In this document: in pieces, positions 41,645 to 54,184 of the stretch
Numbering within the stretch: position 1 is the first letter of the stretch
Layout: every line of letters begins with the position of its first letter
Assembly (NCBI GenBank): GCA_017450215.1
Contig: JAFSVH010000087.1
Coordinates: forward strand, 48,287-112,286
Origin: Bacilli bacterium
Lineage (GTDB): Bacteria > Bacillota_I > Bacilli_A > ML615J-28 > CAG-698
DNA: 64,000 nt
Direction of reading: 5' to 3'
Made by a program: the position numbers and the translations under genes
The notes under the pieces: generated by a model
Seen by the model: only the letters and a program-made list of their open reading frames with translations
Told to the model about the DNA's origin: nothing
The model's database searches: none

Positions 41645-42409
41645 GTGTTTATTATGAATAATATAGATAATAAAAAACTACAAAAATTATATGAACTCAT
41701 AAATAAAAGCAATCGTATTGTTTTCTTTGGTGGTGCTGGTGTTTCAACTGCATCTGGTATTCCAGATTTTAGAGGTGCTAACGGTTTATATTCTTATACT
41801 CCTGAAGAGATAATAAGTCATTCTTTCTTTGTGAGAAATCCTAAAATGTTCTATGATTTCTATCTTGATAAAATGGTATATCATGATGCTTTGCCTAATG
41901 CTTGTCATAAGTTACTAGCAAAATTAGAAGAAGATGGTAAATTATTATCTATTGTGACTCAAAATATTGATGGCTTACATCAAGAAGCTGGAAGTAAAAA
42001 GGTTAGAGAATTGCATGGATCTATTAAAAGAAATTATTGCATGAAATGTCATAAATTCTATACATTAGAAGAACTAGAAAGTAGTTTAAAAGATGGAGTT
42101 CCAAGATGTAGTTGTGGTGGGATTATAAAGCCTGATGTTGTTTTATATGAAGAACCACTAGATAATGATACAATGTATGAAGCAGTTGATGATATTAGAC
42201 GTGCTGATTTATTAATTGTAGCAGGAACTAGTTTAGTTGTTTATCCTGCTGCTGGATTTATCAGATATTTTAATGGTGATAATATTGTCGTTATTAATCT
42301 TGGTAGAGCTAATGAAAATGCCTTCTATGGATTAAATAAAGATATATTATATATTGATGGTAGAGTTGAAGAATATTTAAATATTGGTAATTTAAATAAT
42401 TTGAAATAA
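41645..42409 (+). CDS. cobB: NAD-dependent protein deacylase (sirtuin, CobB family)
   Basis: 'GAGVSTASGIPDFRG', 'TQNIDGLH', zinc CxxC...CxxC ('CMKCH...CSCGG'). Confidence 0.8.
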   Translation: MFIMNNIDNKKLQKLYELINKSNRIVFFGGAGVSTASGIPDFRGANGLYSYTPEEIISHSFFVRNPKMFYDFYLDKMVYHDALPNACHKLLAKLEEDGKLLSIVTQNIDGLHQEAGSKKVRELHGSIKRNYCMKCHKFYTLEELESSLKDGVPRCSCGGIIKPDVVLYEEPLDNDTMYEAVDDIRRADLLIVAGTSLVVYPAAGFIRYFNGDNIVVINLGRANENAFYGLNKDILYIDGRVEEYLNIGNLNNLK

Positions 42410-44526: not shown

Positions 44527-44603
44527 GTCCTAGTAGCTCAGTTGGATAGAGCGATAGCCTCCTAAGCTGTAGGTCGGGGGTTCAATTCCCTTCTAGGACG
44601 CCA
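44527..44603 (+). tRNA. tRNA-Arg (anticodon CCT), CCA encoded
   Basis: Cloverleaf readable. Acceptor GTCCTAG/CTAGGAC. D-arm GCTC/GAGC. Anticodon stem ATAGC/GCTGT with loop CTCCTAA. T-loop TTCAATT. 3' GCCA. Confidence 0.85.
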
Positions 44604-44753: not shown

Positions 44754-44832
44754 AAATTTTTACACGATTACAATTGATTTTACACGTTTTACACGATTTG
44801 AAGACAATTTTACACGATTTTACACGATTTAA
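44754..44832 (+). repeat. Iteron-like direct repeats, family A: five copies of (TTT)TACACGATT(T) at about 10/20-bp phasing
   Basis: Copies start at 44761, 44781, 44790, 44811, 44821. Confidence 0.7.
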
Positions 44833-44837
44833 AAAAG

Positions 44838-44925
44838 AACCTTTTAGAGGTTCGTGAACGATTTGGGGGGTTCGTAAACGATTTGAGGGTTCGTGAACGA
44901 TTAGGGGGTTCGTGAACGATTTCAG
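44838..44925 (+). repeat. Iteron-like direct repeats, family B: four copies of GGGG(G)TTCGTGAACGATTT at 19-20 bp spacing, preceded by the palindrome GAACCTTTTAGAGGTTC
   Basis: Copies start at 44851, 44871, 44890, 44909. Each core has a mini-palindrome TCGT-GA-ACGA. Family A and family B share the ACGATT core. Confidence 0.7.
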
Positions 44926-45557
44926 ATTTTCATGCATTTTTTATCATTTACTAGTCTAAAAAATGTTCCTCTAGATACTCCTATTATTTTAGCAGCTTCT
45001 ATGTTGGTAAGTTGATGATTTATATATTGGGTTAGAATCTCATCGGTGTTAGGTGGGGTGACCGCTCTAGGTCTTCCAAACTTAACACCTTTTTCTTTTG
45101 CTATTCTTATTCCTTCCATCTGTCTTTCTCTTATGTTGTTCCTCTCATTCTCCGCAACAAAGCTTAATACTTGTAAAACAATATCACTTATAAACTTACC
45201 GACTAGATTCTTGCCTTCTATTCTAGTATCCAAAAGGGGCATATCTAATACTTTAATATCAGCACCTATTGTTTTTGTGATTCTTGTCCATTCTTCTAAT
45301 ATCATATGATAATTTCTACCTAAACGATCTATTGACTTAATAATCAGTAGGTCGTCTTTTTTTATTTTCTTTATTAATCTTTGGTAATTAGTTCTATTAA
45401 AGTCTTTCCCTGATTCTTTGTCTATATAAATGTACTTGTCTTCAATATTAAGAGTTTTAATCTCTTCATATTGCCTGTCTATTTTTTGTTGTTTCGTGGA
45501 AACACGTATGTATGCATATATCATTGAATTAATACCTCCGCTCTCATATATAGCCAT
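44922..45557 (-). CDS. Small serine recombinase (resolvase/invertase family) with C-terminal HTH
   Basis: N-terminal 'YAYIRVSTKQQ' catalytic-Ser motif, 'DRLGRN' motif, C-terminal 'AAKIIGVSRGTFFRL' HTH. 211 aa. Confidence 0.85.
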   Translation of the reverse strand: MAIYESGGINSMIYAYIRVSTKQQKIDRQYEEIKTLNIEDKYIYIDKESGKDFNRTNYQRLIKKIKKDDLLIIKSIDRLGRNYHMILEEWTRITKTIGADIKVLDMPLLDTRIEGKNLVGKFISDIVLQVLSFVAENERNNIRERQMEGIRIAKEKGVKFGRPRAVTPPNTDEILTQYINHQLTNIEAAKIIGVSRGTFFRLVNDKKCMKI

Positions 45558-45800: not shown

Positions 45801-46751
45801 ATGGATTTTATTAGATCACCATTAAATTATACTGGAAATAAATTTAGGATTTTAGATCAAATAGTTCCTTTATTTCCAAAAAAAATATCATGTATGATTG
45901 ATCTGTTCTGTGGTGGAGCTACTGTAGGATTGAATGTAAAAGCGAATAAAATAATTTTTGTTGATTCAAATGAGCATATCATCAATTTGTTGGTCTATTT
46001 ATCAAAGCATTCTTTCGAATCAGTACTTTGTTCTTTTGAAAACATTATTAATAAATATAATCTTTCTTATTCATATAAGTACGGATATAAAAAATATAGA
46101 GATTATTCAAAAAATAAAAATGATAATAATGGATTAAAAGAATACAATAATAAAGGCTTTTACCTGCTTCGTGATGACTATAATTCTTTGATAGATAAGA
46201 ATACAGATGAAGCCAATGCTATGCTTTATATATTAATGGTATATGCATTTAATAATGATATACGATTTAATTCGGATGGTGATTTTAATCTTCCAGTTGG
46301 AAAAACGGATTTAAATCGAATGAATGTAAATAAAATACGACAATATATAGATAGAATTAAAAGTATTAATGCAGAGTTTGTTTGTACTGACTTTACAAGT
46401 GATGATTTTCAATTATTGGTCAAAAAAGCTGACTTCATATATATGGATCCACCATATTTATTGGGTGATGCTGTATACAATTCTTGTTGGAACAATGAAA
46501 TGGAGCATAAATTATTAGATTTCATTGATTATATTAGAAATGAAAAAATTGATTTTGCCTTATCAAATGTTATGACAAAAATTGGAAAAACAAACGAGCC
46601 ACTTTCCTATTGGGTTTATAAAAATAAAGATTATTTAAAAGTAAATCACATTAAATATAATTATCGCAGCTCAAGTTATAACAAAATAATGCGCGATGCA
46701 AAAGAAGATGAAGTACTCATTTGTAATAAGAGGTATCGCCATGAAAATTAA
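45801..46751 (+). CDS. Dam-like (D12 class, alpha group) N6-adenine DNA methyltransferase 1
   Basis: 'YTGNKFRIL' N-terminus, motif I 'DLFCGGATVG', motif IV 'IYMDPPYL'. RBS AAGAGG. Confidence 0.8.
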   Translation: MDFIRSPLNYTGNKFRILDQIVPLFPKKISCMIDLFCGGATVGLNVKANKIIFVDSNEHIINLLVYLSKHSFESVLCSFENIINKYNLSYSYKYGYKKYRDYSKNKNDNNGLKEYNNKGFYLLRDDYNSLIDKNTDEANAMLYILMVYAFNNDIRFNSDGDFNLPVGKTDLNRMNVNKIRQYIDRIKSINAEFVCTDFTSDDFQLLVKKADFIYMDPPYLLGDAVYNSCWNNEMEHKLLDFIDYIRNEKIDFALSNVMTKIGKTNEPLSYWVYKNKDYLKVNHIKYNYRSSSYNKIMRDAKEDEVLICNKRYRHEN

Positions 46752-47751
46752 TAATAGACGATACATAGGATGTAAAACGAAATTATTAGACTTCATTTAT
46801 GATTCAGTTGAAAGATACAACATTTCTAAAGACTCGGTATTTGCTGATATTTTTGCAGGAACGGGAGTTGTAGCTTATAGATTTGCTTTAGAAGGATATA
46901 AAACAATTTTAAATGATACTTTATTTTCAAATTATGTGATTTATAAAACTATTTTTAATAATGAAATAATGAGAATAGATTTGTTGAAAAACGAAATAAA
47001 TTATTTTAATTCAATAGATAGTGATTCATTAAAAGCAAATTATTTTTCAAACACTTATGGTGGAAAATACTATTCTTTTGATAATGCCAAAAAAATAGGA
47101 TTTATAAGAGATTACATTGAAGAAAACAAACAAAAGTATAATGAAAGGGAATATTACTATTTAATTACCTGTTTATTATATGCATGCGATAAAATTGCAA
47201 ATACAGTTGGACATTTTGAATCATATCTACATAGTGCTCCTAAAGGAGAAAAACTTATGTTAGAAGAGTTTGAGATGAATAGCAATCTTCCTGAATCTTA
47301 TATATATAACGAAGATGCTAATAATCTTGCAAAAAAAATAAATGCAGATATTGTATATATTGATCCTCCTTACAATGCTAGACAATATGTGAATTTTTAT
47401 CATGTTTTAGAAAATTTAGCAAGGTGGAATAAGCCGACTGAATTTGAAGGAAAATCAATGAAATTTAAACGAGACAATCTTAAAAGTGATTATTGTAGAA
47501 GTAAAGCACCTTTATTGTTTGAGGATTTAATTCAATCACTAAAATGTAAATTAATTGTTGTCTCATATAATAATACATACAATGCAAAAAGTGTATCCTC
47601 TAATAATACAATTAGTGAAGATCAAATAATTGAAATATTAAGTAAAAAAGGAAATGTAACTATTAAGACAATTGATTATAGTGCATTTAATGCTGGCAAA
47701 ACAGATTTAAAAAATCACAAAGAATATTTGTATATATGTGAGGTATTTTAA
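46741..47751 (+). CDS. Dam-like (D12 class) N6-adenine DNA methyltransferase 2. Start chosen at ATG 46741 (RBS AAGAGG) rather than the ORF-track start 46696.
   Basis: 'RYIGCKTKLL' Dam N-terminal signature, motif I 'DIFAGTGVVA', motif IV 'VYIDPPYNA'. Overlaps MTase 1 by 11 nt. Confidence 0.8.
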   Translation: MKINNRRYIGCKTKLLDFIYDSVERYNISKDSVFADIFAGTGVVAYRFALEGYKTILNDTLFSNYVIYKTIFNNEIMRIDLLKNEINYFNSIDSDSLKANYFSNTYGGKYYSFDNAKKIGFIRDYIEENKQKYNEREYYYLITCLLYACDKIANTVGHFESYLHSAPKGEKLMLEEFEMNSNLPESYIYNEDANNLAKKINADIVYIDPPYNARQYVNFYHVLENLARWNKPTEFEGKSMKFKRDNLKSDYCRSKAPLLFEDLIQSLKCKLIVVSYNNTYNAKSVSSNNTISEDQIIEILSKKGNVTIKTIDYSAFNAGKTDLKNHKEYLYICEVF

Positions 47752-48668
47752 TGACAATACTTGAATACTATATTAAACAACAATCCATTGATATTTGGTA
47801 TGAAAAGTTCATTAGTAGTTCAAATAAACAAAGTGGAAAATCATTTAGTTATGTTAATACTAACTATAGAAATTTACTTTCATTTTTAATTCAATTTGAT
47901 CGATTTAGATCAAAAGTAGGAATTGAACGAAAAGATTGGAATGACAAATTGCCTGGTGGACAAGAATTAGACAAACATAGAATATCTAATTTGATTTTGT
48001 CGGGATTTATTCGAAAGGAAGACACTTATTATTACTATACACCAAAAGGTGTTGCTGCTTTGGATTTAATAGATAAAAACTATGGTGATTCCATAAAATG
48101 GATATTATTATACTTACTTCTTTTAGATTATAAAAGTGAAAATAGAAACTGCGATATTATTCACACTACAAAAGATCTTTTTTCAAAGTTACAATCAATT
48201 GGTTATACAAATGAATGTATATTAAATAGTCTAAGAAAAATAATAAAAGTAACTGATAAAATAAAACTTTTTAACGAAGATATATTTTGGTTGATCTCGT
48301 TTGTTAATGATGAAGATTTTATTAAAATGTATAAGAATAGTAGCGAACAAGAAAAAAACGATTTGAAAGAATTTGTAATTAATCGTTCAAAAGACGAACA
48401 TAGTACTGATTTGATAGCACACAAATACACACCTGGTGGAATTTATAGTGGAATAATGTTTAGGGAAGATGTTAAGGTATTTTATTATACATATAAAATA
48501 ATTGGAATACTTTCAGAGCCATTTGATTCATTTATTAATGAAATAATAAAAGTATATTGTGAAGATTTTTGTTCAGAAAATGACGCTGATATAATAAAAG
48601 AATTCATTAGCAGTCATAAAAGTATTTATATTAAAGTTAAACAAGAATTATTAATGGGGGTAAAGTAA
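47751..48668 (+). CDS. Hypothetical 305-aa protein, translationally coupled between the MTases and the GmrSD-like gene; candidate restriction endonuclease or specificity partner
   Basis: Start ATG overlaps the MTase 2 stop (TAATG). No recognised motif. A loose D...(D/E)xK candidate sits at 'TDLIAHK...FREDVK'. Position after paired MTases is where Type II REase genes sit. Confidence 0.3.
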   Translation: MTILEYYIKQQSIDIWYEKFISSSNKQSGKSFSYVNTNYRNLLSFLIQFDRFRSKVGIERKDWNDKLPGGQELDKHRISNLILSGFIRKEDTYYYYTPKGVAALDLIDKNYGDSIKWILLYLLLLDYKSENRNCDIIHTTKDLFSKLQSIGYTNECILNSLRKIIKVTDKIKLFNEDIFWLISFVNDEDFIKMYKNSSEQEKNDLKEFVINRSKDEHSTDLIAHKYTPGGIYSGIMFREDVKVFYYTYKIIGILSEPFDSFINEIIKVYCEDFCSENDADIIKEFISSHKSIYIKVKQELLMGVK

Positions 48669-48669
48669 A

Positions 48670-50742
48670 ATGCCAAATGTAAGACCTGATAGATTTGAAT
48701 TATTAAGATTTTTTAAATATGCTCCAAATACCCAATTTGTAATCCCTGTATATCAAAGAAATTATATATGGACTGCCAAAAAACAAGTAAGAAAATACTT
48801 AGATGATTATAAAGCTGTATTAAGTGGTGAGCGTGTAAAACATTTTATTGGTATTATAATGTACTTACAAATACAAAGAAGCATTGGATTTTTTGAATTT
48901 TCTGTAGTTGATGGTCAGCAGAGATTTGTAACCACATTTTTGATGCTATATGCTTTAAAGAAAATTGCTATGGAAGCTGGTAATCTTACTTTCGCGACTC
49001 AAATTAATGATTTATATTTAACAAATCAATATGCGAAAAATTATAATGATAAACTAAAATTAAAACCATTGGTATCTGATGATGATGTATTCAGCAAAAT
49101 AATAAAAGATGATCTACAGAATTTAACAAAAGAAGAAAAAAAGTCGAATGTTTATATTAATTATATTACTGTAAAAAAATATTTAAAAGAACTATATGGA
49201 CATTTTCAACTAGAACAAATGTTAGAAGCTTTTGATAAGTTTTATTTTGTTGCAATTCCATTAGATAGTAGTGAAGATGATGCTCAAAAGATTTTTGAAA
49301 CCATAAATTCTGCTGGTGCTGCATTGACAAAATCAGACTTAATTCGAAATTATATTTTGATGAATATGCAGAGCTATGAGCAAGATAGATTATACAAGGA
49401 ATATTGGTATCCTATGGAAAAATCTTTTGCTAGTTCTGGAAAAATAGAAAATTTCTTTAGAATGTTTTTGGCTAATAGAAATTACAATCTAAGTAATATG
49501 GAAGACATTTATGATGTTTTTCAAATTTGGTTTGATAAAAACAGATCAAATTATGGAATAGAACAGTCTTTAAAAACAATTTGTAAATATGCAAAATATT
49601 ATAATGATTTATTTATTAAAGAAAAGGTTGAAATTGCTCCAGAAATAGATGTTGCTTTAAAAGAATTCAAAAAAAATGCAATAGAACCTACTGCTCCTTT
49701 GTTAATGGAAATTTATAATCTATACGATAGTAAAGATGATAAGAACGACCGCCTTGTTTCAGCTATGGAATTTGCAAAGATTATTAATTTATTTAATATT
49801 TATAATGTTAGAAGAAATATTTGCAATCAAAGAACTGGTATATTAACTCGTATAGTTCCATTAATGTTGAAGTATGTTCTTGATAATTGCGATGGTGTCT
49901 ATTCAAAGATTTATGAACATTGTGTTCGTTATCTAGTAGACAATTCAAAAGGCAAGCAATCATTTATGCCAGATGATGAATATTTGAAATTAAATTTATC
50001 TGGTGCTAATGCTTATAGTTTGAGAAATTATGTAAAAACTATATTTGAAAAGATAGAGTCATATAATAATCCTGCAGTAATTGATTTTTCAAATTTAAGT
50101 ATAGAACACTTAATGCCACAGACTCCAACGGATGAGTGGCTTAAAACTTTGAATATAAAAAAGGAAGACTACGAATTTAATGTTCATAGACTTGGTAATT
50201 TAACTCTTGCTACGTCAGTAGATAATAGTAAAATGTCAAATAATCCATTTGAATATAAAAAGCAAGTTCTTCAAAATACATCTCATTTAAAAATGAATAT
50301 GGAGATAATTAACAAACCAACGTGGGGAATAAAAGAAATAGAGGAAAGAACTGCATATTTAATTCAAAAAATATGCGATTTATATCCATATGTTTCAGTT
50401 GGAGAGCAAACTGTTAATCATTATAATGTTTATTTAAAGAATGATAATTCTGACATATCTGCATTTTTGTTTTCGGATGAAACAATTGAAATTCAAGAGG
50501 GTAGCATAATAAAATGCTCATATAATAATTTCATTAGGGACTTGGTTGAAGATGGAATAATAAAGGAATCGGGAGAAAAATACGAATTTTTGCAACCATA
50601 TTCATTTAGTAATATTGAAGAAGCAACAAATACAATGGCACCCGATATTACAAATTGCTGGGAATCATGGGTAGACTATAATAAACAACCATTAAGTCTT
50701 GAATTAAGAGCAAAGTTGCTAAATTCTAAAGCAAAAAAATAG
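48670..50742 (+). CDS. GmrSD-family Type IV restriction-endonuclease-like protein (N-terminal DUF262 ParB-like NTPase/nickase + C-terminal DUF1524 His-Me finger nuclease)
   Basis: DUF262 'VVDGQQRF' (DGQQR) motif. C-terminal 'IEHLMPQTP...HRLGNLTLATSVDNSKMSNNPF' HNH-like DUF1524 motif. 690 aa. Starts 1 nt after the previous stop. Confidence 0.75.
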   Translation: MPNVRPDRFELLRFFKYAPNTQFVIPVYQRNYIWTAKKQVRKYLDDYKAVLSGERVKHFIGIIMYLQIQRSIGFFEFSVVDGQQRFVTTFLMLYALKKIAMEAGNLTFATQINDLYLTNQYAKNYNDKLKLKPLVSDDDVFSKIIKDDLQNLTKEEKKSNVYINYITVKKYLKELYGHFQLEQMLEAFDKFYFVAIPLDSSEDDAQKIFETINSAGAALTKSDLIRNYILMNMQSYEQDRLYKEYWYPMEKSFASSGKIENFFRMFLANRNYNLSNMEDIYDVFQIWFDKNRSNYGIEQSLKTICKYAKYYNDLFIKEKVEIAPEIDVALKEFKKNAIEPTAPLLMEIYNLYDSKDDKNDRLVSAMEFAKIINLFNIYNVRRNICNQRTGILTRIVPLMLKYVLDNCDGVYSKIYEHCVRYLVDNSKGKQSFMPDDEYLKLNLSGANAYSLRNYVKTIFEKIESYNNPAVIDFSNLSIEHLMPQTPTDEWLKTLNIKKEDYEFNVHRLGNLTLATSVDNSKMSNNPFEYKKQVLQNTSHLKMNMEIINKPTWGIKEIEERTAYLIQKICDLYPYVSVGEQTVNHYNVYLKNDNSDISAFLFSDETIEIQEGSIIKCSYNNFIRDLVEDGIIKESGEKYEFLQPYSFSNIEEATNTMAPDITNCWESWVDYNKQPLSLELRAKLLNSKAKK

Positions 50743-50749
50743 AGGACTA

Positions 50750-51409
50750 ATGATGATGACAAAAGGATTTATTTATATTTTAACTAATCCATCTTTCGAA
50801 GGTCATGATTGGGTGAAAATAGGCTACACAAAGAATGTGGAAAAAAGAAGAAAGGATTTGTCCACTACCGCATTACCTTTTGAATATGAGATATACGCAT
50901 ATTATGAATTACCAGAAGGAGTTGAACTAGCAGATAAAGCTGTTCATAATCTTATCCAACAATTGAATCCAGGCATTAGATTAAATCCCAATAGGGAATT
51001 CTTTGATATGAAACCAGAAGATGCATATAATTTATTAAATTGTATTGCTAAAATTAATGGTAAGGAACTAGTTAATGGACCTGGTAGAATAGAATATGAA
51101 AAAACTTTACAAATAAAAACAAAAGATTCGCCCAAAAAATATCCTAAAATGGATTGGCTAATGGAACAGGGAGTAATTAAGCCAGGTGATGACATTTATG
51201 TCGTAAACCATCCGGAAGATGTTGCAACTATAATTGATGCTGATACTGTGGAATATAATGGCGATAAATTATCTTTTAATCAATTTGGATGTAAAGTTAC
51301 TGGATGGAGTGCTATACAGACATATGCATTAATGAAAAAGGTTGGTTGCAGCGAAACACTTCATGAATTAAGATTGGCAAAAATGCAGGAAGTTAATTGG
51401 AAAGGTTAA
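50750..51409 (+). CDS. GIY-YIG-like (T5orf172) nuclease-domain protein with C-terminal DUF4357
   Basis: 'GFIYILTNPSFEGHDWVKIGYTKNVEKRRKDL' matches the T5orf172/GIY-YIG pattern. C-terminal region is of DUF4357 type. 7 bp after the GmrSD-like gene. Confidence 0.65.
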   Translation: MMMTKGFIYILTNPSFEGHDWVKIGYTKNVEKRRKDLSTTALPFEYEIYAYYELPEGVELADKAVHNLIQQLNPGIRLNPNREFFDMKPEDAYNLLNCIAKINGKELVNGPGRIEYEKTLQIKTKDSPKKYPKMDWLMEQGVIKPGDDIYVVNHPEDVATIIDADTVEYNGDKLSFNQFGCKVTGWSAIQTYALMKKVGCSETLHELRLAKMQEVNWKG

Positions 51410-51527: not shown

Positions 51528-53000
51528 GTGTTAGGAAAAGAACAATATTTGAAATTGCAAGAATTAAAAGAATTGGGATTATCAAAACTAAAAGTATCTG
51601 AAAAACTAAATCTTTCATATAAGACTGTTTGTAATTGGTGGGATAAGGACGAATCATATTTTGAATCTTTTGAAAAAGAACATGAGTTTATGCTTGATAA
51701 TTATCGTCAATACATTATTGAGATATTAAAAATAAGTCCTCAAATTCATAATACAGTAATATTAAGAAGGATTAAAGATGACTTTAAAGATTTTGATGTT
51801 CCAAAGCAAACATTTTTTAGGTACATTAAAAAACTGAGAGAACAATCTGGTTTAATTAAACCACCTAGAAAGTTTCAAATTAGAGAACAAACAGAACCAG
51901 GATATGAAGGACAAGTTGATTTTGGTCAGTATGTTATGCAAACGGCATACAAGAAGAACATAAGAATATATTTCTTTTGTATGACATTATCATATTCCAG
52001 AATGAAGTTTGCTTGTTTTAGTGTAGAACCATTTGATGCTAGAATGGTAGTAGATGCTCACATTGCCGCATTCAAGTACTTTGGTGGAAGACCGCAAATG
52101 CTAGTATATGACCAAGACAAAACAATGGTAGTATCAGAGAATTTAGGAGAAGTAGTATTTGTTAAAGAATTTGAAGATTTTATCAAACAAACAGGATTTT
52201 CAATTTATCTATGTAAAGGTTATGATCCATCTACTAAAGGTAAGATTGAAAAAACTGTAGACTTTGTTAAACATCAGTTTTTAGATGGAAGAATCTATTA
52301 TGGCCTTGATAGACTTAATTGTGAATTTATTGATTGGTTAGATCGTGAAGGAAATGGATTAATTAATGACACAATAAAGAAAGTTCCACGAGATATGTTT
52401 AAGCATGAATATCCAAAACTTCAAAAGTTTTATGAAATTAAAAATGATGATATTGTGGTTCATACTGTTTATCATGATACTGTTGAATATAAGGATAATC
52501 TGTATAAGCTTCCTCAAGCATTAGTTGATGAAGGAGATAGAATTAGAATTGAAAAGTACGACGATGATTTACTATTTTACCATGCATTAACAAGTGAACT
52601 ATTGTGTAAACATAAGATAGTTGGTGGAATGGGTAATATTGTAACACTAAAAGATGAGAAAATAGTTAATGATACAGTAGAAGAAGTATTATTAAAAGAT
52701 TTCAAAGATAGTGATGTAGCGATTAAGTTTATTAAAAGAATGAGAGAACAAAAACCAAGATATGTATATCCTCAGTGTAGAAGGCTCCAAAGTATGAGAA
52801 AGTATTATTCTGATAAGGCGATAATAGATGCAATGGAATATTGTGTTAGTGTTGACACATGTACGATATTTGAATTATCTAGTTATCTAATTTATAAAAT
52901 GGGAGATACAATAGCTAAGAAGTTTATAACTACACATGTTATAAGACATTATAAGGATAGAGCAGAAGAGATTAGAAAGGAGTTAATTAATAATGGCTGA
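51528..53000 (+). CDS. istA: IS21-family transposase IstA (HTH + DDE integrase core)
   Basis: N-terminal HTH 'LSKLKVSEKLNLSYKTVCNW'. DDE core 'GQVDFGQ'. 490 aa. GTG start with RBS AGGAGGTG. Confidence 0.85.
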   Translation: MLGKEQYLKLQELKELGLSKLKVSEKLNLSYKTVCNWWDKDESYFESFEKEHEFMLDNYRQYIIEILKISPQIHNTVILRRIKDDFKDFDVPKQTFFRYIKKLREQSGLIKPPRKFQIREQTEPGYEGQVDFGQYVMQTAYKKNIRIYFFCMTLSYSRMKFACFSVEPFDARMVVDAHIAAFKYFGGRPQMLVYDQDKTMVVSENLGEVVFVKEFEDFIKQTGFSIYLCKGYDPSTKGKIEKTVDFVKHQFLDGRIYYGLDRLNCEFIDWLDREGNGLINDTIKKVPRDMFKHEYPKLQKFYEIKNDDIVVHTVYHDTVEYKDNLYKLPQALVDEGDRIRIEKYDDDLLFYHALTSELLCKHKIVGGMGNIVTLKDEKIVNDTVEEVLLKDFKDSDVAIKFIKRMREQKPRYVYPQCRRLQSMRKYYSDKAIIDAMEYCVSVDTCTIFELSSYLIYKMGDTIAKKFITTHVIRHYKDRAEEIRKELINNG

Positions 53001-53655
53001 TAATATTGAAATACAAGCACTTGCTAGAGTACTTAATTTACAAAACATAGCTAATGGTAATATTGATCTAAATAATGAAAGAATATCAAATAAAGATTAT
53101 TTATATCAGATTTTACTTGAAGAAGTAAATATTAGAAATAAAAACAAGTTAATGGATATTAGAAAAATGGCTAAGCTTCCTAATAAGGTATTTGATGAAA
53201 CAAGAATAACTGAAGGATTAAAGTGGCAATTATCTAAACTTAAAGAATTTGATTTTAAATTAAACAAACAAAACATATTTATTGTTGGGGACTGTGCAAC
53301 AGGAAAAACTTCTCTTGCAACACTATTAGGCAATAAAGCACTTGACAAAGGTGCTAAAGTATCTTACATTACTTATGATGATTTAGTTATTGAATCTAAA
53401 ATAAAGAAAAGAGTATGGAATCATATTTTAGAATCTGATGTACTAATACTAGATGATGTGTTTTATTTACCACCAACTGAAGAAGAACTAATTCAAATAT
53501 ATAAGGTTTTAATGTTTTTACAAGAAACAAGGAGTATTATTGTAATTACTAATAGAAGCTTATCTAGTTGGAAAGATATGAAGGTAGATACACATTTAAT
53601 TGAGACATTGCAAAAAAGACTGATGCAGAACGCTCAAATAATTACACTTGGCTAA
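52993..53655 (+). CDS. istB: IS21-family helper ATPase IstB
   Basis: Walker A 'FIVGDCATGKTSLA'. Walker B 'VLILDDVF'. Overlaps istA by 8 nt. Confidence 0.85.
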   Translation: MADNIEIQALARVLNLQNIANGNIDLNNERISNKDYLYQILLEEVNIRNKNKLMDIRKMAKLPNKVFDETRITEGLKWQLSKLKEFDFKLNKQNIFIVGDCATGKTSLATLLGNKALDKGAKVSYITYDDLVIESKIKKRVWNHILESDVLILDDVFYLPPTEEELIQIYKVLMFLQETRSIIVITNRSLSSWKDMKVDTHLIETLQKRLMQNAQIITLG

Positions 53656-53934
53656 AGAGTAGTAGGTTCATCAGTTGCCATAAAGATAACCTCCTTTGTG
53701 ATAAGTGATGAGTTTAATATTTGACTGTTAGGAACTCGTAGGAGTGTATAAAAATTCTCAAAAATTACCAATTAATTAGCAAAATTTGAGAATATTTTAT
53801 AAAAAAGGGGTAGGGGGGTCTAAATCTCTGTACCTTTTTACCCGGGCATCGGCCTGGGGTTTCGTGCGAATTTTTTTGAGTTCAAACTGTGAAAATAGTA
53901 TTATCGTAACAATTCCATTCAATTGGATTAATGT

Positions 53935-54184
53935 GGTTGGTAATAAAGTTGGTAATAAGGTTGGTAATAAAGTTCTAGGGAAAGATGAAAAGGCAGACTT
54001 GACCGAAAACAGAAAGAAAATAATAAGTGAAATTAGAAACAACCCTAATATCACAAAAGAACAATTATCGATGATTATAGGAATTAGCACAACAGCTATT
54101 GATAAGAATTTAGAATACTTAAAAGTGCATAATTATATTGAAAGAGTAGGCTCTAAGAAAACAGGATATTGGAAAGTAAAATAA
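53935..54184 (+). pseudogene. C-terminal remnant of a wHTH transcriptional-regulator/ATPase gene (RecG-C-terminal-like 'HATPase_c_4 + wHTH' family), preceded by VGNK tetrapeptide-repeat linker; 5' part missing
   Basis: 'KKIISEIRNNPNITKEQLSMIIGISTTAIDKNLEYLKVHNYIERVGSKKTGYWKV' is the characteristic C-terminal wHTH of that family. Upstream 'VGNKVGNKVGNKV' is encoded by 3 tandem 12-bp repeats at 53947-53982. There is no upstream ATPase domain; an IS sits immediately 5'. Confidence 0.5.

What the first reader, a model, noticed from the sequence alone, without database searches (positions are those of the whole stretch)
45801..51409. Five-gene, translationally coupled defence operon: two Dam-like MTases + 305-aa unknown + GmrSD-like DUF262/DUF1524 + GIY-YIG/DUF4357
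All five genes sit on one strand with overlaps or gaps of 7 nt or less (46741 inside MTase 1; TAATG at 47751; 1 nt at 48669; 7 nt at 50743-50749), so they are almost certainly one transcription unit. The composition is unusual. Two alpha-class Dam-type N6-adenine methyltransferases normally indicate a Type II or Type IIS R-M system. Here the only recognisable nucleases are a GmrSD-type (DUF262 DGQQR + DUF1524 His-Me) enzyme, a class that normally restricts modified DNA, and a GIY-YIG(T5orf172)/DUF4357 protein. Co-transcribing m6A writers with a modification-dependent-type nuclease would be self-defeating unless the GmrSD-like protein has been re-wired. It might read unmethylated DNA. It might act as the effector of an MTase-marked self/non-self system, analogous to SspE or BrxU being recruited into PT or BREX systems. 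Or the 305-aa protein may mediate specificity. I do not recognise this exact gene order as a described system.
Basis: partly seen in the sequence, partly recalled or inferred. Interest (0 to 1): 0.8.

Follow-up and report, generated by a model that had tools for sequence, protein, structure and literature searches.

The report
Methylase-guarded restriction system using GmrSD nuclease
Four of the five genes form a conserved, mobile restriction-modification cassette: two adenine methylases probably protect the host, a previously unnamed 305-aa DNA-binding protein probably picks the target, and a GmrSD-type enzyme, normally known for cutting modified DNA, probably does the cutting.

Summary
The five ORFs, their junctions and most domain calls are real. 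DUF4357 on gene 5 is not confirmed.

Comparative data split the block in two. The core is four genes: M1, M2, the 305-aa protein X, and a GmrSD-like protein G. This order was found in all 11 distinct loci examined, whether I started from X or from G, at X identity down to 39%, on prophages, plasmids and integrative elements. Gene 5 (a T5orf172 nuclease, PADLOC candidate PDC-S57) is a variable add-on.

X is an all-helical winged-helix protein with no nuclease motif. The same domain occurs fused to an HNH nuclease in about 48 metagenome loci, always behind M1-M2 orthologues. It also occurs fused to, or placed next to, a LlaJI-type McrB-like NTPase with an McrC-like nuclease. X therefore looks like a portable target-recognition module.

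G keeps its NTPase (DGQQR) and His-Me motifs. Its closest solved structures are DndI and SspE, which are effectors of modification-protected systems.

Best reading (about 0.6): a LlaJI-like hybrid restriction-modification system in which X reads the unmethylated asymmetric site and G cleaves. I found no description of it in the literature searched. REBASE could not be queried. I rate it a new variant of a known kind, and it needs experimental test.

The parts
45801..46751 (+). M1: D12-class (alpha) N6-adenine DNA methyltransferase, 316 aa. It resembles the C-terminal half of fused two-domain, FokI-MTase-sized Type IIS methylases.
   Evidence: Pfam MethyltransfD12 2.3e-27 and TIGR00571 dam 4.5e-36. 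PADLOC MTase_II PDLC03383 1.6e-84. It also aligns to positions 443-641 of 646 and 417-716 of 722 of the fused MTase models. Orthologues lie first in every related cassette.
46741..47751 (+). M2: second D12-class N6-adenine methyltransferase, 336 aa from ATG 46741. It overlaps M1 by 11 nt and resembles the N-terminal half of the fused Type IIS methylases.
   Evidence: Pfam MethyltransfD12 5.5e-30. PADLOC PDLC03373 1.1e-112, and positions 2-327 of 646 and 78-408 of 722 of the fused models. Start chosen from the RBS and from orthologue lengths of 336-346 aa.
47751..48668 (+). X: 305-aa protein of a rare, unnamed family. It is all-helical with a winged helix at about residues 75-108. Proposed role: the target-recognition (specificity) subunit.
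48670..50742 (+). G: GmrSD-family protein, 690 aa. It has a DUF262 NTPase domain (DGQQR at 81-85), a helical linker, a DUF1524 His-Me nuclease (EH 479-480, HRLGN 506-510, DN 518-519) and a less conserved C-terminal extension (about 567-690). Proposed role: the NTP-dependent cleavage engine.
   Evidence: Pfam GmrSD_N 7.4e-30 and GmrSD_C 2.2e-25. The motifs are invariant in the clade. AF2 pLDDT 86.5. Foldseek PDB: DndI 7.6e-15, SspE 3e-10, BrxU 9e-6. Three clade members at 49-56% identity (P0183, P0197, P0156), picked from the G search, all lie in M1-M2-X-G operons.
50750..51409 (+). Gene 5: GIY-YIG/T5orf172 nuclease, 219 aa, with an unassigned C-terminal domain. It is probably co-transcribed, but it is a separate, exchangeable defence gene and not part of the core.
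   Evidence: Pfam T5orf172 1.2e-13. PADLOC PDC-S57 1.6e-49. 4589 homologues. Present after G in the window, L002/3 and L015-17 only; replaced or missing in the other loci. Weak RAMA hits in 3 of 25 homologues.
44527..44603 (+). tRNA-Arg(CCT), at the left edge of the inserted region. Context only, not part of the system.
   Evidence: ARAGORN.
44922..45557 (-). Serine recombinase (resolvase/invertase), divergent from the operon. A mobility marker of the island.
   Evidence: Pfam Resolvase 3.8e-26. A resolvase also lies next to the cassette in L008.
51528..53655 (+). IS21-type istA/istB pair directly downstream of gene 5. A mobility marker.
   Evidence: Pfam rve 6e-10 and IstB_IS21 4.9e-28. An IS21 pair also flanks the cassette in L010.

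Best explanation
Genes 1-4 form one mobile restriction-modification system of the LlaJI/LlaI 'Type II behaviour, Type IV machinery' kind, with a GmrSD-family enzyme in place of the McrBC-like pair.

Proposed mechanism:
- M1 and M2 each methylate one strand (m6A) of an asymmetric site in the host genome.
- X is a nuclease-less winged-helix protein. It binds the same site when it is unmethylated, as on incoming phage or plasmid DNA.
- X recruits or licenses G. G uses its DUF262 NTPase and DUF1524 His-Me nuclease to nick or cut that DNA.
- Gene 5 is an independent, co-located single-gene nuclease defence.

Shown here: gene order, coupling, domain content and intact motifs; strict co-occurrence and co-variation of X with one G clade; and the modular use of the X domain with three different nuclease engines behind the same MTase pair.

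Inferred: that X reads the unmethylated site; that X and G interact physically; that G cleaves; and the methylation motif.
For: (1) Conservation of the core.
- M1-M2-X-G occurs in the same order in every locus retrieved via X: L001, L002/3, L004-6, L008, L010, L011/12, L013.
- It also occurs in every locus retrieved independently via G: L015-17, L018-19, L021-22.
- X identity falls to 39% and G identity to 45%.
- The flanks differ: prophage, Rep/Mob plasmid, integrase elements, IS21.
- X-G spacing runs from a 14-nt overlap to a 12-nt gap in all 11 loci.

(2) Co-variation. Pairwise X and G identities correlate (Spearman 0.71, p 2e-5). Both are under purifying selection, with dN/dS about 0.2 for X and about 0.07 for G.

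(3) X has no nuclease features.
- The confident model is all-helical with a single beta-hairpin.
- Across 55 sequences the conserved polar residues are K/R/N/Q/S/T/G, with a single acidic residue.
- No REase family matches.

(4) Domain fusions.
- 55 of about 90 full-length representatives of the X family are about 441-520 aa; the seven whose C-termini I read carry a C-terminal HNH, except P0024.
- About 48 metagenome loci show M1-M2-X-HNH.
- Eight representatives are X fused to McrB-like AAA_5.
- In L007 a separate X is followed by an McrB-like and a RE_LlaJI (McrC-like) gene.
- That McrB-like protein aligns end to end with residues 314-876 of the fusion protein P0031 (42% identity).
- So X sits where McrB homologues carry their DNA-binding domain.
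- The MTases of L007 are as close to the window's (62% and 67%) as those of the GmrSD loci. The engine is what was swapped.

(5) G is intact. DGQQR, EH, HRLGN and DN are invariant. Its nearest solved structures are DndI and SspE, GmrSD-like effectors of modification-protected systems (PMC11662687).

(6) Precedent. LlaJI restricts an unmodified asymmetric site with two MTases plus McrB-like and McrC-like proteins (PMC1459862). LlaI and BsuMI use a separate DNA-binding R1 protein (bioRxiv 10.64898/2026.08.31.748284).
Against: - There is no experimental or interaction evidence.
- No X-GmrSD fusion was seen among the 130 representatives.
- GmrSD-like genes are known to sit inside or beside other defence systems as independent Type IV modules (HEC-05/06, bioRxiv 10.1101/2024.01.29.577857; PMC4619093).
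- I saw that pattern too. Distant GmrSDs (25-42% identity to G) follow some complete M1-M2-X-HNH operons. A GmrSD+DUF4357 protein follows a complete AlwI-type R-M system.
- Co-variation of X and G could partly reflect co-inheritance on one mobile cassette.
- One X-HNH gene (L071) lies among housekeeping genes with no MTase nearby.
Confidence: 0.6

Rival explanations
1. Two independent systems lie side by side. G is an ordinary stand-alone modification-dependent (Type IV) GmrSD enzyme embedded next to an R-M module, as BrxU and HEC-06 are embedded in BREX, Hma and Type I loci. M1-M2-X is a separate unit whose cutting activity lies in X (an unrecognised nuclease) or elsewhere.
For: GmrSD-like genes are often embedded in or beside other systems, in the same orientation (bioRxiv 10.1101/2024.01.29.577857; PMC4619093). 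Unrelated GmrSDs follow some complete M1-M2-X-HNH operons. A GmrSD+DUF4357 protein follows a complete AlwI-type R-M system. G matches PADLOC HEC-06 (6e-53) and mREase_IV models.
Against: X is all-helical with no conserved catalytic-type residues, and it is fused to nucleases elsewhere. M1-M2-X alone would therefore be an R-M system without a nuclease. The G clade (>=47% identity) was in this cassette in all three members sampled from the G search and in every locus reached via X. It is distinct from the GmrSDs that follow X-HNH. In L007 the G slot is taken by a LlaJI-type McrBC pair, which in LlaJI is the R-M nuclease (PMC1459862). X-G junctions are overlaps or gaps of at most 12 nt in all 11 loci.
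Confidence: 0.2
2. The same four-gene system works by DndI/SspE-like logic. G is the default DNA-damaging enzyme. X (or G's own C-terminal domain) senses the methylated self sites written by M1 and M2, stimulates G's NTPase and releases or silences G on self DNA. DNA lacking the marks is then attacked without sequence-specific targeting.
For: The closest solved structures to G are DndI and SspE. In DndI, the host modification stimulates the ATPase and causes release from self DNA (PMC11662687). G has a variable C-terminal extension with a weak DUF4357 match.
Against: In the commonest relatives X is fused directly to an HNH nuclease behind the same MTases. That arrangement only makes sense if X binds the unmethylated site; otherwise the host would cut itself. 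In X-McrB fusions X takes the place of the target-binding domain.
Confidence: 0.12
3. X is a regulator (a large controller protein) or an MTase accessory factor. The cassette is then two orphan or regulatory methylases plus an unrelated nuclease gene.
For: X has a MarR-like winged helix. LlaJI expression is controlled through its own recognition sites (cited in PMC11779793).
Against: Small separate HTH genes already precede M1 in several loci: L004-6, L021/22 and L023. A regulator would not be repeatedly fused to HNH or McrB-like enzymes. At 305 aa with about 40 invariant positions among its standalone orthologues, X is far larger than a C protein.
Confidence: 0.05

Closest known systems
LlaJI (Lactococcus pNP40) and its relatives: a Type II/Type IV hybrid R-M system
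   Same: It is a four-gene, same-strand operon. Two MTases cover the two strands of an asymmetric site. Restriction of unmethylated DNA is carried out by an NTP-dependent machine of a family otherwise known for modification-dependent restriction. Specificity and cleavage are on different polypeptides (PMC1459862, PMC12707154). A true McrB-like/RE_LlaJI version carrying an X orthologue exists in L007.
   Different: LlaJI uses m5C MTases, a B3-type DNA-binding domain fused to the McrB-like GTPase, and a PD-(D/E)XK McrC-like nuclease. The window uses m6A (D12) MTases, a free-standing X protein of a different fold, and a single GmrSD-type NTPase/His-Me nuclease.
LlaI and BsuMI: non-canonical McrBC systems with three restriction genes
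   Same: A separate protein of about 300 aa (R1), encoded between the MTase(s) and the NTPase, is the DNA-binding module. The LlaI MTase is said to be a fused FokI-like two-domain enzyme; that detail is my own recollection, not checked here (bioRxiv 10.64898/2026.08.31.748284).
   Different: LlaI.R1 is an alpha/beta ERCC4-like two-domain protein. X is all-helical with a winged helix, so it is analogous, not homologous. The engine is R2 (AAA+) plus R3 (McrC-like), not GmrSD.
SspE and DndI: GmrSD-like effectors of phosphorothioate systems
   Same: They are DUF262-DUF1524 proteins that act as the restriction arm of a system whose host DNA carries a protective modification. They are the closest solved structures to G (PMC11662687).
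   Different: Their modification is backbone phosphorothioation made by Dnd/Ssp proteins, and the GmrSD-like protein senses it itself. No dnd or ssp genes are present here. The modification genes are two adenine methylases, and there is an extra specificity protein.
GmrSD, BrxU and HEC-06: Type IV enzymes
   Same: G has the same two catalytic domains and motifs. PADLOC HEC-06 matches at 6e-53.
   Different: Those enzymes are stand-alone and modification-dependent. G belongs to a clade found here only in operons with two MTases and X. BrxU is a more distant structural match than DndI and SspE.
FokI-type Type IIS R-M systems

Membership tests
LlaJI-type R-M (Type II behaviour with a Type IV-type engine) | Two MTases in the operon, one for each strand of an asymmetric site | tested here: inconclusive
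   Two intact D12 MTases are present, each resembling one half of the fused two-domain Type IIS methylase models. Strand and site specificity cannot be read from sequence. LlaJI itself uses m5C MTases (PMC1459862).
LlaJI-type R-M (Type II behaviour with a Type IV-type engine) | McrB-like GTPase plus McrC-like PD-(D/E)XK nuclease as the restriction subunits | tested here: not met
   The window has no AAA_5 or RE_LlaJI gene; G is GmrSD-type. The feature is met in the related locus L007.
LlaJI-type R-M (Type II behaviour with a Type IV-type engine) | Restricts unmethylated DNA; the MTases are needed for host viability | not testable with these tools
   Needs cloning, plaque and transformation assays.
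GmrSD family (Pfam GmrSD_N + GmrSD_C) | DUF262 domain with the DGQQR NTPase motif | tested here: met
   GmrSD_N 7.4e-30. DGQQR at 81-85, invariant in 38 sequences.
GmrSD family (Pfam GmrSD_N + GmrSD_C) | DUF1524 His-Me (EHxxP ... N ... N) nuclease domain | tested here: met
   GmrSD_C 2.2e-25. E479, H480, P483, H506-N510 and D518-N519 are invariant. The fold matches DndI, SspE and BrxU.
Type IV (modification-dependent) restriction enzyme | Acts alone and cuts only modified DNA; no cognate MTase | tested here: inconclusive
   The context argues against it: the gene is always co-operonic with two MTases and X. Activity was not tested.
SspE/DndI PT-sensing systems | Partner dnd or ssp modification genes nearby | tested here: not met
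   The neighbours are MTases, X, a resolvase, IS21 and housekeeping genes. PADLOC SspE matches only weakly, at 1e-14, over the nuclease motif.
DpnII-type cassette (two Dam-like MTases + R.DpnII) | The third gene is a DpnII/MboI-family endonuclease | tested here: not met
   X has no Pfam hit of any kind, so the DpnII family is not matched, and no PADLOC REase_II hit. The fold is all-helical.
LlaI.R1/BsuMI.R1 DNA-binding subunit | Two-domain alpha/beta fold with an ERCC4-like domain 1 | tested here: not met
PADLOC candidate PDC-S57 (gene 5) | Sequence match to the PDC-S57 T5orf172 model | tested here: met
   PDLC05043 1.6e-49, covering 1-214 of 221. T5orf172 1.2e-13. Defence activity of this candidate was not tested here.
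   No DUF4357 at E<=1 in gene 5 or its C-terminal half. None of the full-length homologues listed carries it.

The most novel reading that the evidence does not exclude
X defines a new plug-in DNA-recognition module. Behind one conserved pair of adenine methylases, it can drive three unrelated nuclease engines: a fused HNH, a LlaJI-type McrBC pair, or a GmrSD-type enzyme. The window would then hold the first methylation-protected, sequence-targeted restriction system whose cutter is a GmrSD-family protein. That would be a second independent case, after McrBC/LlaJI, of a 'modified-DNA-only' machine re-wired to attack unmodified DNA.
Probability: 0.55. Interest if true: 0.72.

Novelty: new variant of a known kind. 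Interest (0 to 1): 0.66.

Why it matters
GmrSD-family enzymes are classed as Type IV, meaning modification-dependent. The known exceptions, SspE and DndI, work with phosphorothioation. A GmrSD engine placed under m6A protection and directed by a separate specificity protein would have three consequences.

- It would extend the 'Type II behaviour, Type IV machinery' class beyond McrBC.
- It would show that recognition modules and nuclease engines of restriction systems are exchanged as cassettes.
- It would flag a blind spot in annotation. PADLOC would report orphan MTases, a Type IV/HEC-06-like gene and PDC-S57. NCBI calls X 'hypothetical' and G 'DUF262 domain-containing'.

The X-HNH relatives may also be an uncharacterised family of Type IIS-like enzymes with a new recognition fold, which is of practical interest for enzyme discovery.

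Tried and rejected
- **DpnII-like cassette** (two Dam-like MTases plus a REase of about 290 aa). Rejected: X has no DpnII or REase family match and is all-helical.
- **X as a homologue of LlaI.R1.** Rejected on fold: LlaI.R1 is an ERCC4-like alpha/beta protein, X is helical.
- **tblastn of X against 72,556 plasmids and 50,697 phages.** No match. No annotated record could be used.
- **Foldseek of X against PDB.** Nothing significant, best E 0.17. The afdb50 library was unavailable.
- **PDB sequence searches.** A single-sequence search with X found only a chance-level match (E 0.87). A profile search with the X-HNH alignment matched only through the HNH part, similar to McrA.
- **Genome-contig scan.** Only 2 species-level genomes, a Bacilli MAG and an Anaeroplasma MAG. 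Too few for taxonomic statements.
- **Promoter scan.** Fewer hits than in shuffled sequence, so uninformative in this AT-rich DNA.
- **Island boundaries.** A search for a direct repeat of the tRNA 3' end found none.
- **C-terminal halves of gene 5 and G.** No meaningful similarity.
- **Not attempted.** An X+G co-fold, because the structure tool reports no interface measures. Motif-avoidance statistics in 64 kb, because the sample is too small.

Full report
**1. The observation**

The window is AT-rich (about 28% GC). It comes from a 'Bacilli bacterium' metagenome-assembled genome. There NCBI names the 305-aa protein 'hypothetical protein IJS58_06595' (MBQ7276904.1) and the 690-aa protein 'DUF262 domain-containing protein' (MBQ7276905.1).

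Five + strand ORFs lie at 45801-46751, 46741-47751, 47751-48668, 48670-50742 and 50750-51409. I read every junction:
- M2 starts 11 nt inside M1.
- M2 and X share TAATG.
- One nucleotide separates X from G.
- Seven nucleotides separate G from gene 5.
- Each start has a GGAGG-like ribosome-binding site.
- No terminator-like hairpin lies on the + strand inside the block.

Domain calls:
- M1 and M2 are D12-class adenine methylases (2e-27 and 5e-30).
- G has GmrSD_N and GmrSD_C (7e-30 and 2e-25).
- Gene 5 has T5orf172 (1e-13).
- X matches nothing in Pfam, NCBIfam, PADLOC or PDB sequences.

A weak DUF4357 signal (E 1e-3, below Pfam's threshold) sits instead in the C-terminal extension of G.

The block lies in an inserted region. 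On its left are tRNA-Arg(CCT) (44527-44603) and a divergent serine recombinase. On its right is an IS21 istA/istB pair.

**2. Is the gene combination more than a defence-island accident?**

X is rare: 18 homologues among 5.8 billion clustered proteins, all unnamed. I fetched the contigs of diverged homologues.
- L001 (53% identity to X), L002/3 (42%), L004-6 (46%), L008 (39%), L010 (51%), L011/12 (50%) and L013 all carry M1-M2-X-GmrSD in the same order.
- As an independent test I searched with G. I then fetched contigs for three G homologues at 53%, 49% and 56% identity. All three again lie in M1-M2-X(302-308 aa)-G operons (L015-22).
- That makes 11 distinct loci, on prophage-like elements, a Rep3/Mob plasmid, integrase/MobL elements and next to IS21.
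- X-G junctions range from a 14-nt overlap to a 12-nt gap.
- Pairwise identities of X and G co-vary (Spearman 0.71, p 2e-5).
- Both genes are under purifying selection. dN/dS is about 0.2 for X and about 0.07 for G. In the closest pair X has pN 0.06 against pS 0.85.

Below about 47% identity, G's relatives are the very abundant stand-alone GmrSD+DUF4357 proteins. One of those sits after a complete AlwI-type Type IIS R-M system.

The fifth position is not conserved:
- T5orf172 in the window, L002/3 and L015-17.
- A second GmrSD with DUF4357 in L004-6 and, split by a frameshift, in L013.
- A PLD nuclease with a DpnI_C domain in L010.
- A 65-aa ORF in L001.
- Nothing in L018 or L021/22.

Gene 5 belongs to a family with 4589 homologues that PADLOC lists as the single-gene candidate PDC-S57. 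The unit is therefore four genes plus an exchangeable neighbour.

**3. What is X?**

The AlphaFold model from 17 sequences is confident (pLDDT 87.4, pTM 0.87). It is all-helical apart from one beta-hairpin, with a winged helix around residues 75-108. To my knowledge all known restriction-nuclease catalytic folds are built on beta-sheets, so this argues against a catalytic role.

Structure searches:
- Foldseek against PDB gives nothing significant.

A profile search of 1.84 billion representatives found 130 members. They fall into three architectures:
- 23 free-standing proteins of about 305 aa.
- 55 proteins of 441-520 aa, whose extra C-terminal part is a classical HNH (NYLEIHH...CPxCH) in nearly all of those I inspected.
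- 8 proteins of 580-930 aa in which X precedes a McrB-like AAA_5 NTPase.

Across 55 sequences of all three architectures, the conserved polar residues are S22, G29, T37, N38, R40, R60, Q71, E72, K75, T97, K99, G100, K225 and G230. Only one is acidic, and there is no nuclease motif. The most conserved stretch (residues 22-40) is predicted disordered, as expected for a segment that orders on DNA or on a partner.

**4. The relatives identify the role of X**

A metagenome scan for X-HNH returned 80 loci. I scored them with HMMs built from the cassette proteins. About 48 loci with enough upstream DNA read M1-M2-X-HNH, with the same MTase order as here. That is the layout of a Type IIS-like enzyme: recognition domain, then cleavage domain, behind two strand-specific methylases.

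In L007 a free-standing X (38% identity) follows M1-M2 orthologues that are 62% and 67% identical to the window's. It is followed by an McrB-like AAA_5 protein and a RE_LlaJI (McrC-like) protein. PADLOC scores those two as the REBASE-derived REase_II models. The L007 McrB-like protein aligns from its first residue to residues 314-876 of P0031, whose first 297 residues are X (42% identity). So X and the NTPase exist both as neighbours and as one chain. In the fused form X sits where McrB homologues carry their target-binding domain.

The published parallels are direct.
- In LlaJI, two MTases protect an asymmetric site. An McrB-like subunit supplies specificity and an McrC-like subunit cleaves (PMC1459862; PMC12707154).
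- In LlaI and BsuMI, the DNA-binding module is a separate R1 protein (bioRxiv 10.64898/2026.08.31.748284).
- LlaI.R1 is an alpha/beta ERCC4-like protein, so X is an analogue, not a homologue.

**5. What is G?**

The NTPase motif (DGQQR) and the His-Me motifs (EH479-480, HRLGN506-510, DN518-519) are invariant in 38 clade members and relatives. The C-terminal extension (567-690) is the least conserved part.

The model (pLDDT 86.5) matches, in this order:
- DndI (9jfl), 7.6e-15.
- SspE (7drr, 6jiv, 7dri), 3e-10 to 3e-6.
- BrxU (7p9k), 9e-6.

DndI and SspE are the GmrSD-like proteins that serve as restriction arms of systems protected by a host DNA modification (PMC11662687).

**6. Most likely mechanism (confidence about 0.6)**

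- M1 and M2 methylate the two strands of an asymmetric site.
- X binds that site when it is unmethylated.
- G, recruited or licensed by X, uses NTP hydrolysis and its His-Me domain to nick or cut.
- Gene 5 acts separately.

Shown: architecture, conservation, co-variation, motif integrity, and the modular reuse of X.

Inferred: the methylation sensitivity of X, the X-G contact, and cleavage by G.

**7. Rivals**

(a) G is an independent Type IV enzyme that merely travels with the cassette (0.2).
- For: GmrSD genes are known to embed in other systems (bioRxiv 10.1101/2024.01.29.577857; PMC4619093). Distant GmrSDs (25-42% identity, not the G clade) follow some complete X-HNH operons.
- Against: M1-M2-X would have no nuclease. 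The G clade was found only in this cassette in the loci examined. An McrBC-type R-M nuclease can take G's place.

(b) DndI-like logic, in which methylated self DNA switches G off (0.12). This fits the structural neighbours. It fits poorly with X-HNH fusions behind the same methylases.

(c) X is a regulator (0.05). This is contradicted by the fusions and by separate small HTH genes upstream in several loci.

One unexplained exception remains. An X-HNH gene in L071 lies among housekeeping genes with no methylase nearby.

**8. Novelty**

The 2025 EcoSal Plus review cites only one McrBC-related case, LlaJI, as a modification-dependent-type machine acting on an unmodified site with MTases. It treats GmrSD as modification-dependent, apart from SspE. 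The 2015 GmrSD phylogenomics paper reports enrichment of Type I R-M neighbours but no such system. Three further full-text searches found no description. PADLOC 2023 has no model for X and would split the locus. REBASE could not be queried.

I rate it a new variant of a known kind: a LlaJI/LlaI-type hybrid R-M system with a GmrSD engine and a specificity module of a new fold. It is a comparative-genomic prediction that needs the experiments listed under next steps.

Noticed in passing
window 44758-44927: Two arrays of short direct repeats lie between tRNA-Arg(CCT) and the 3' end of the serine recombinase gene. One is TTTTACACGATT x4. The other is GGGTTCGTGAACGATTTG x4 at 19-20 nt spacing. They may be recombinase-binding or res-type sites, or iterons.
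   Followed up: no
L010 6400-7233; L004 11017-13122; L002 9874-10575; L015 9138-9887: The slot after G is repeatedly filled by small nucleases carrying putative modified-base reader domains. These are PLD + DpnI_C (5.9e-27), GmrSD + DUF4357, and T5orf172 with weak RAMA-like hits. So predicted methyl-dependent enzymes sit next to an m6A-writing system.
   Followed up: partly
L071 5025-6356: An X-HNH gene lies among housekeeping genes (HisRS, YqeY, MerR-type regulator). No methylase lies within 5 kb on either side. This is an exception to the M1-M2-X-HNH rule.
   Followed up: partly
protein P0024 (463 aa), residues about 300-463: One X-family representative carries a C-terminal extension that is neither HNH nor AAA+ and has no Pfam or PADLOC match. 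This may be a fourth partner domain or a truncated fusion.
   Followed up: no
window 53786-54184: A small ORF with a GNKV x3 repeat (DNA repeat at 53929-53974), followed by a winged-helix HTH (HTH_24/MarR_2), lies just after the IS21 element.
   Followed up: no
L004 vs L013, X and G genes: The proteins are 90% and 86% identical, but synonymous sites differ at 82-85%, above random expectation. This suggests transfer between hosts with different codon usage or base composition, under strong protein-level constraint.
   Followed up: no
window 47751-48668, X residues 22-40: The most conserved stretch of X (S.S..KQSGK.FS..NTN.R) is the only part that AlphaFold predicts with pLDDT below 50. It is a candidate DNA-contact or partner-contact loop.
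   Followed up: no
window 41645-42409: A Sir2-family protein (7.9e-53) lies among the housekeeping genes upstream of the island. It was not examined for a defence role.
   Followed up: no
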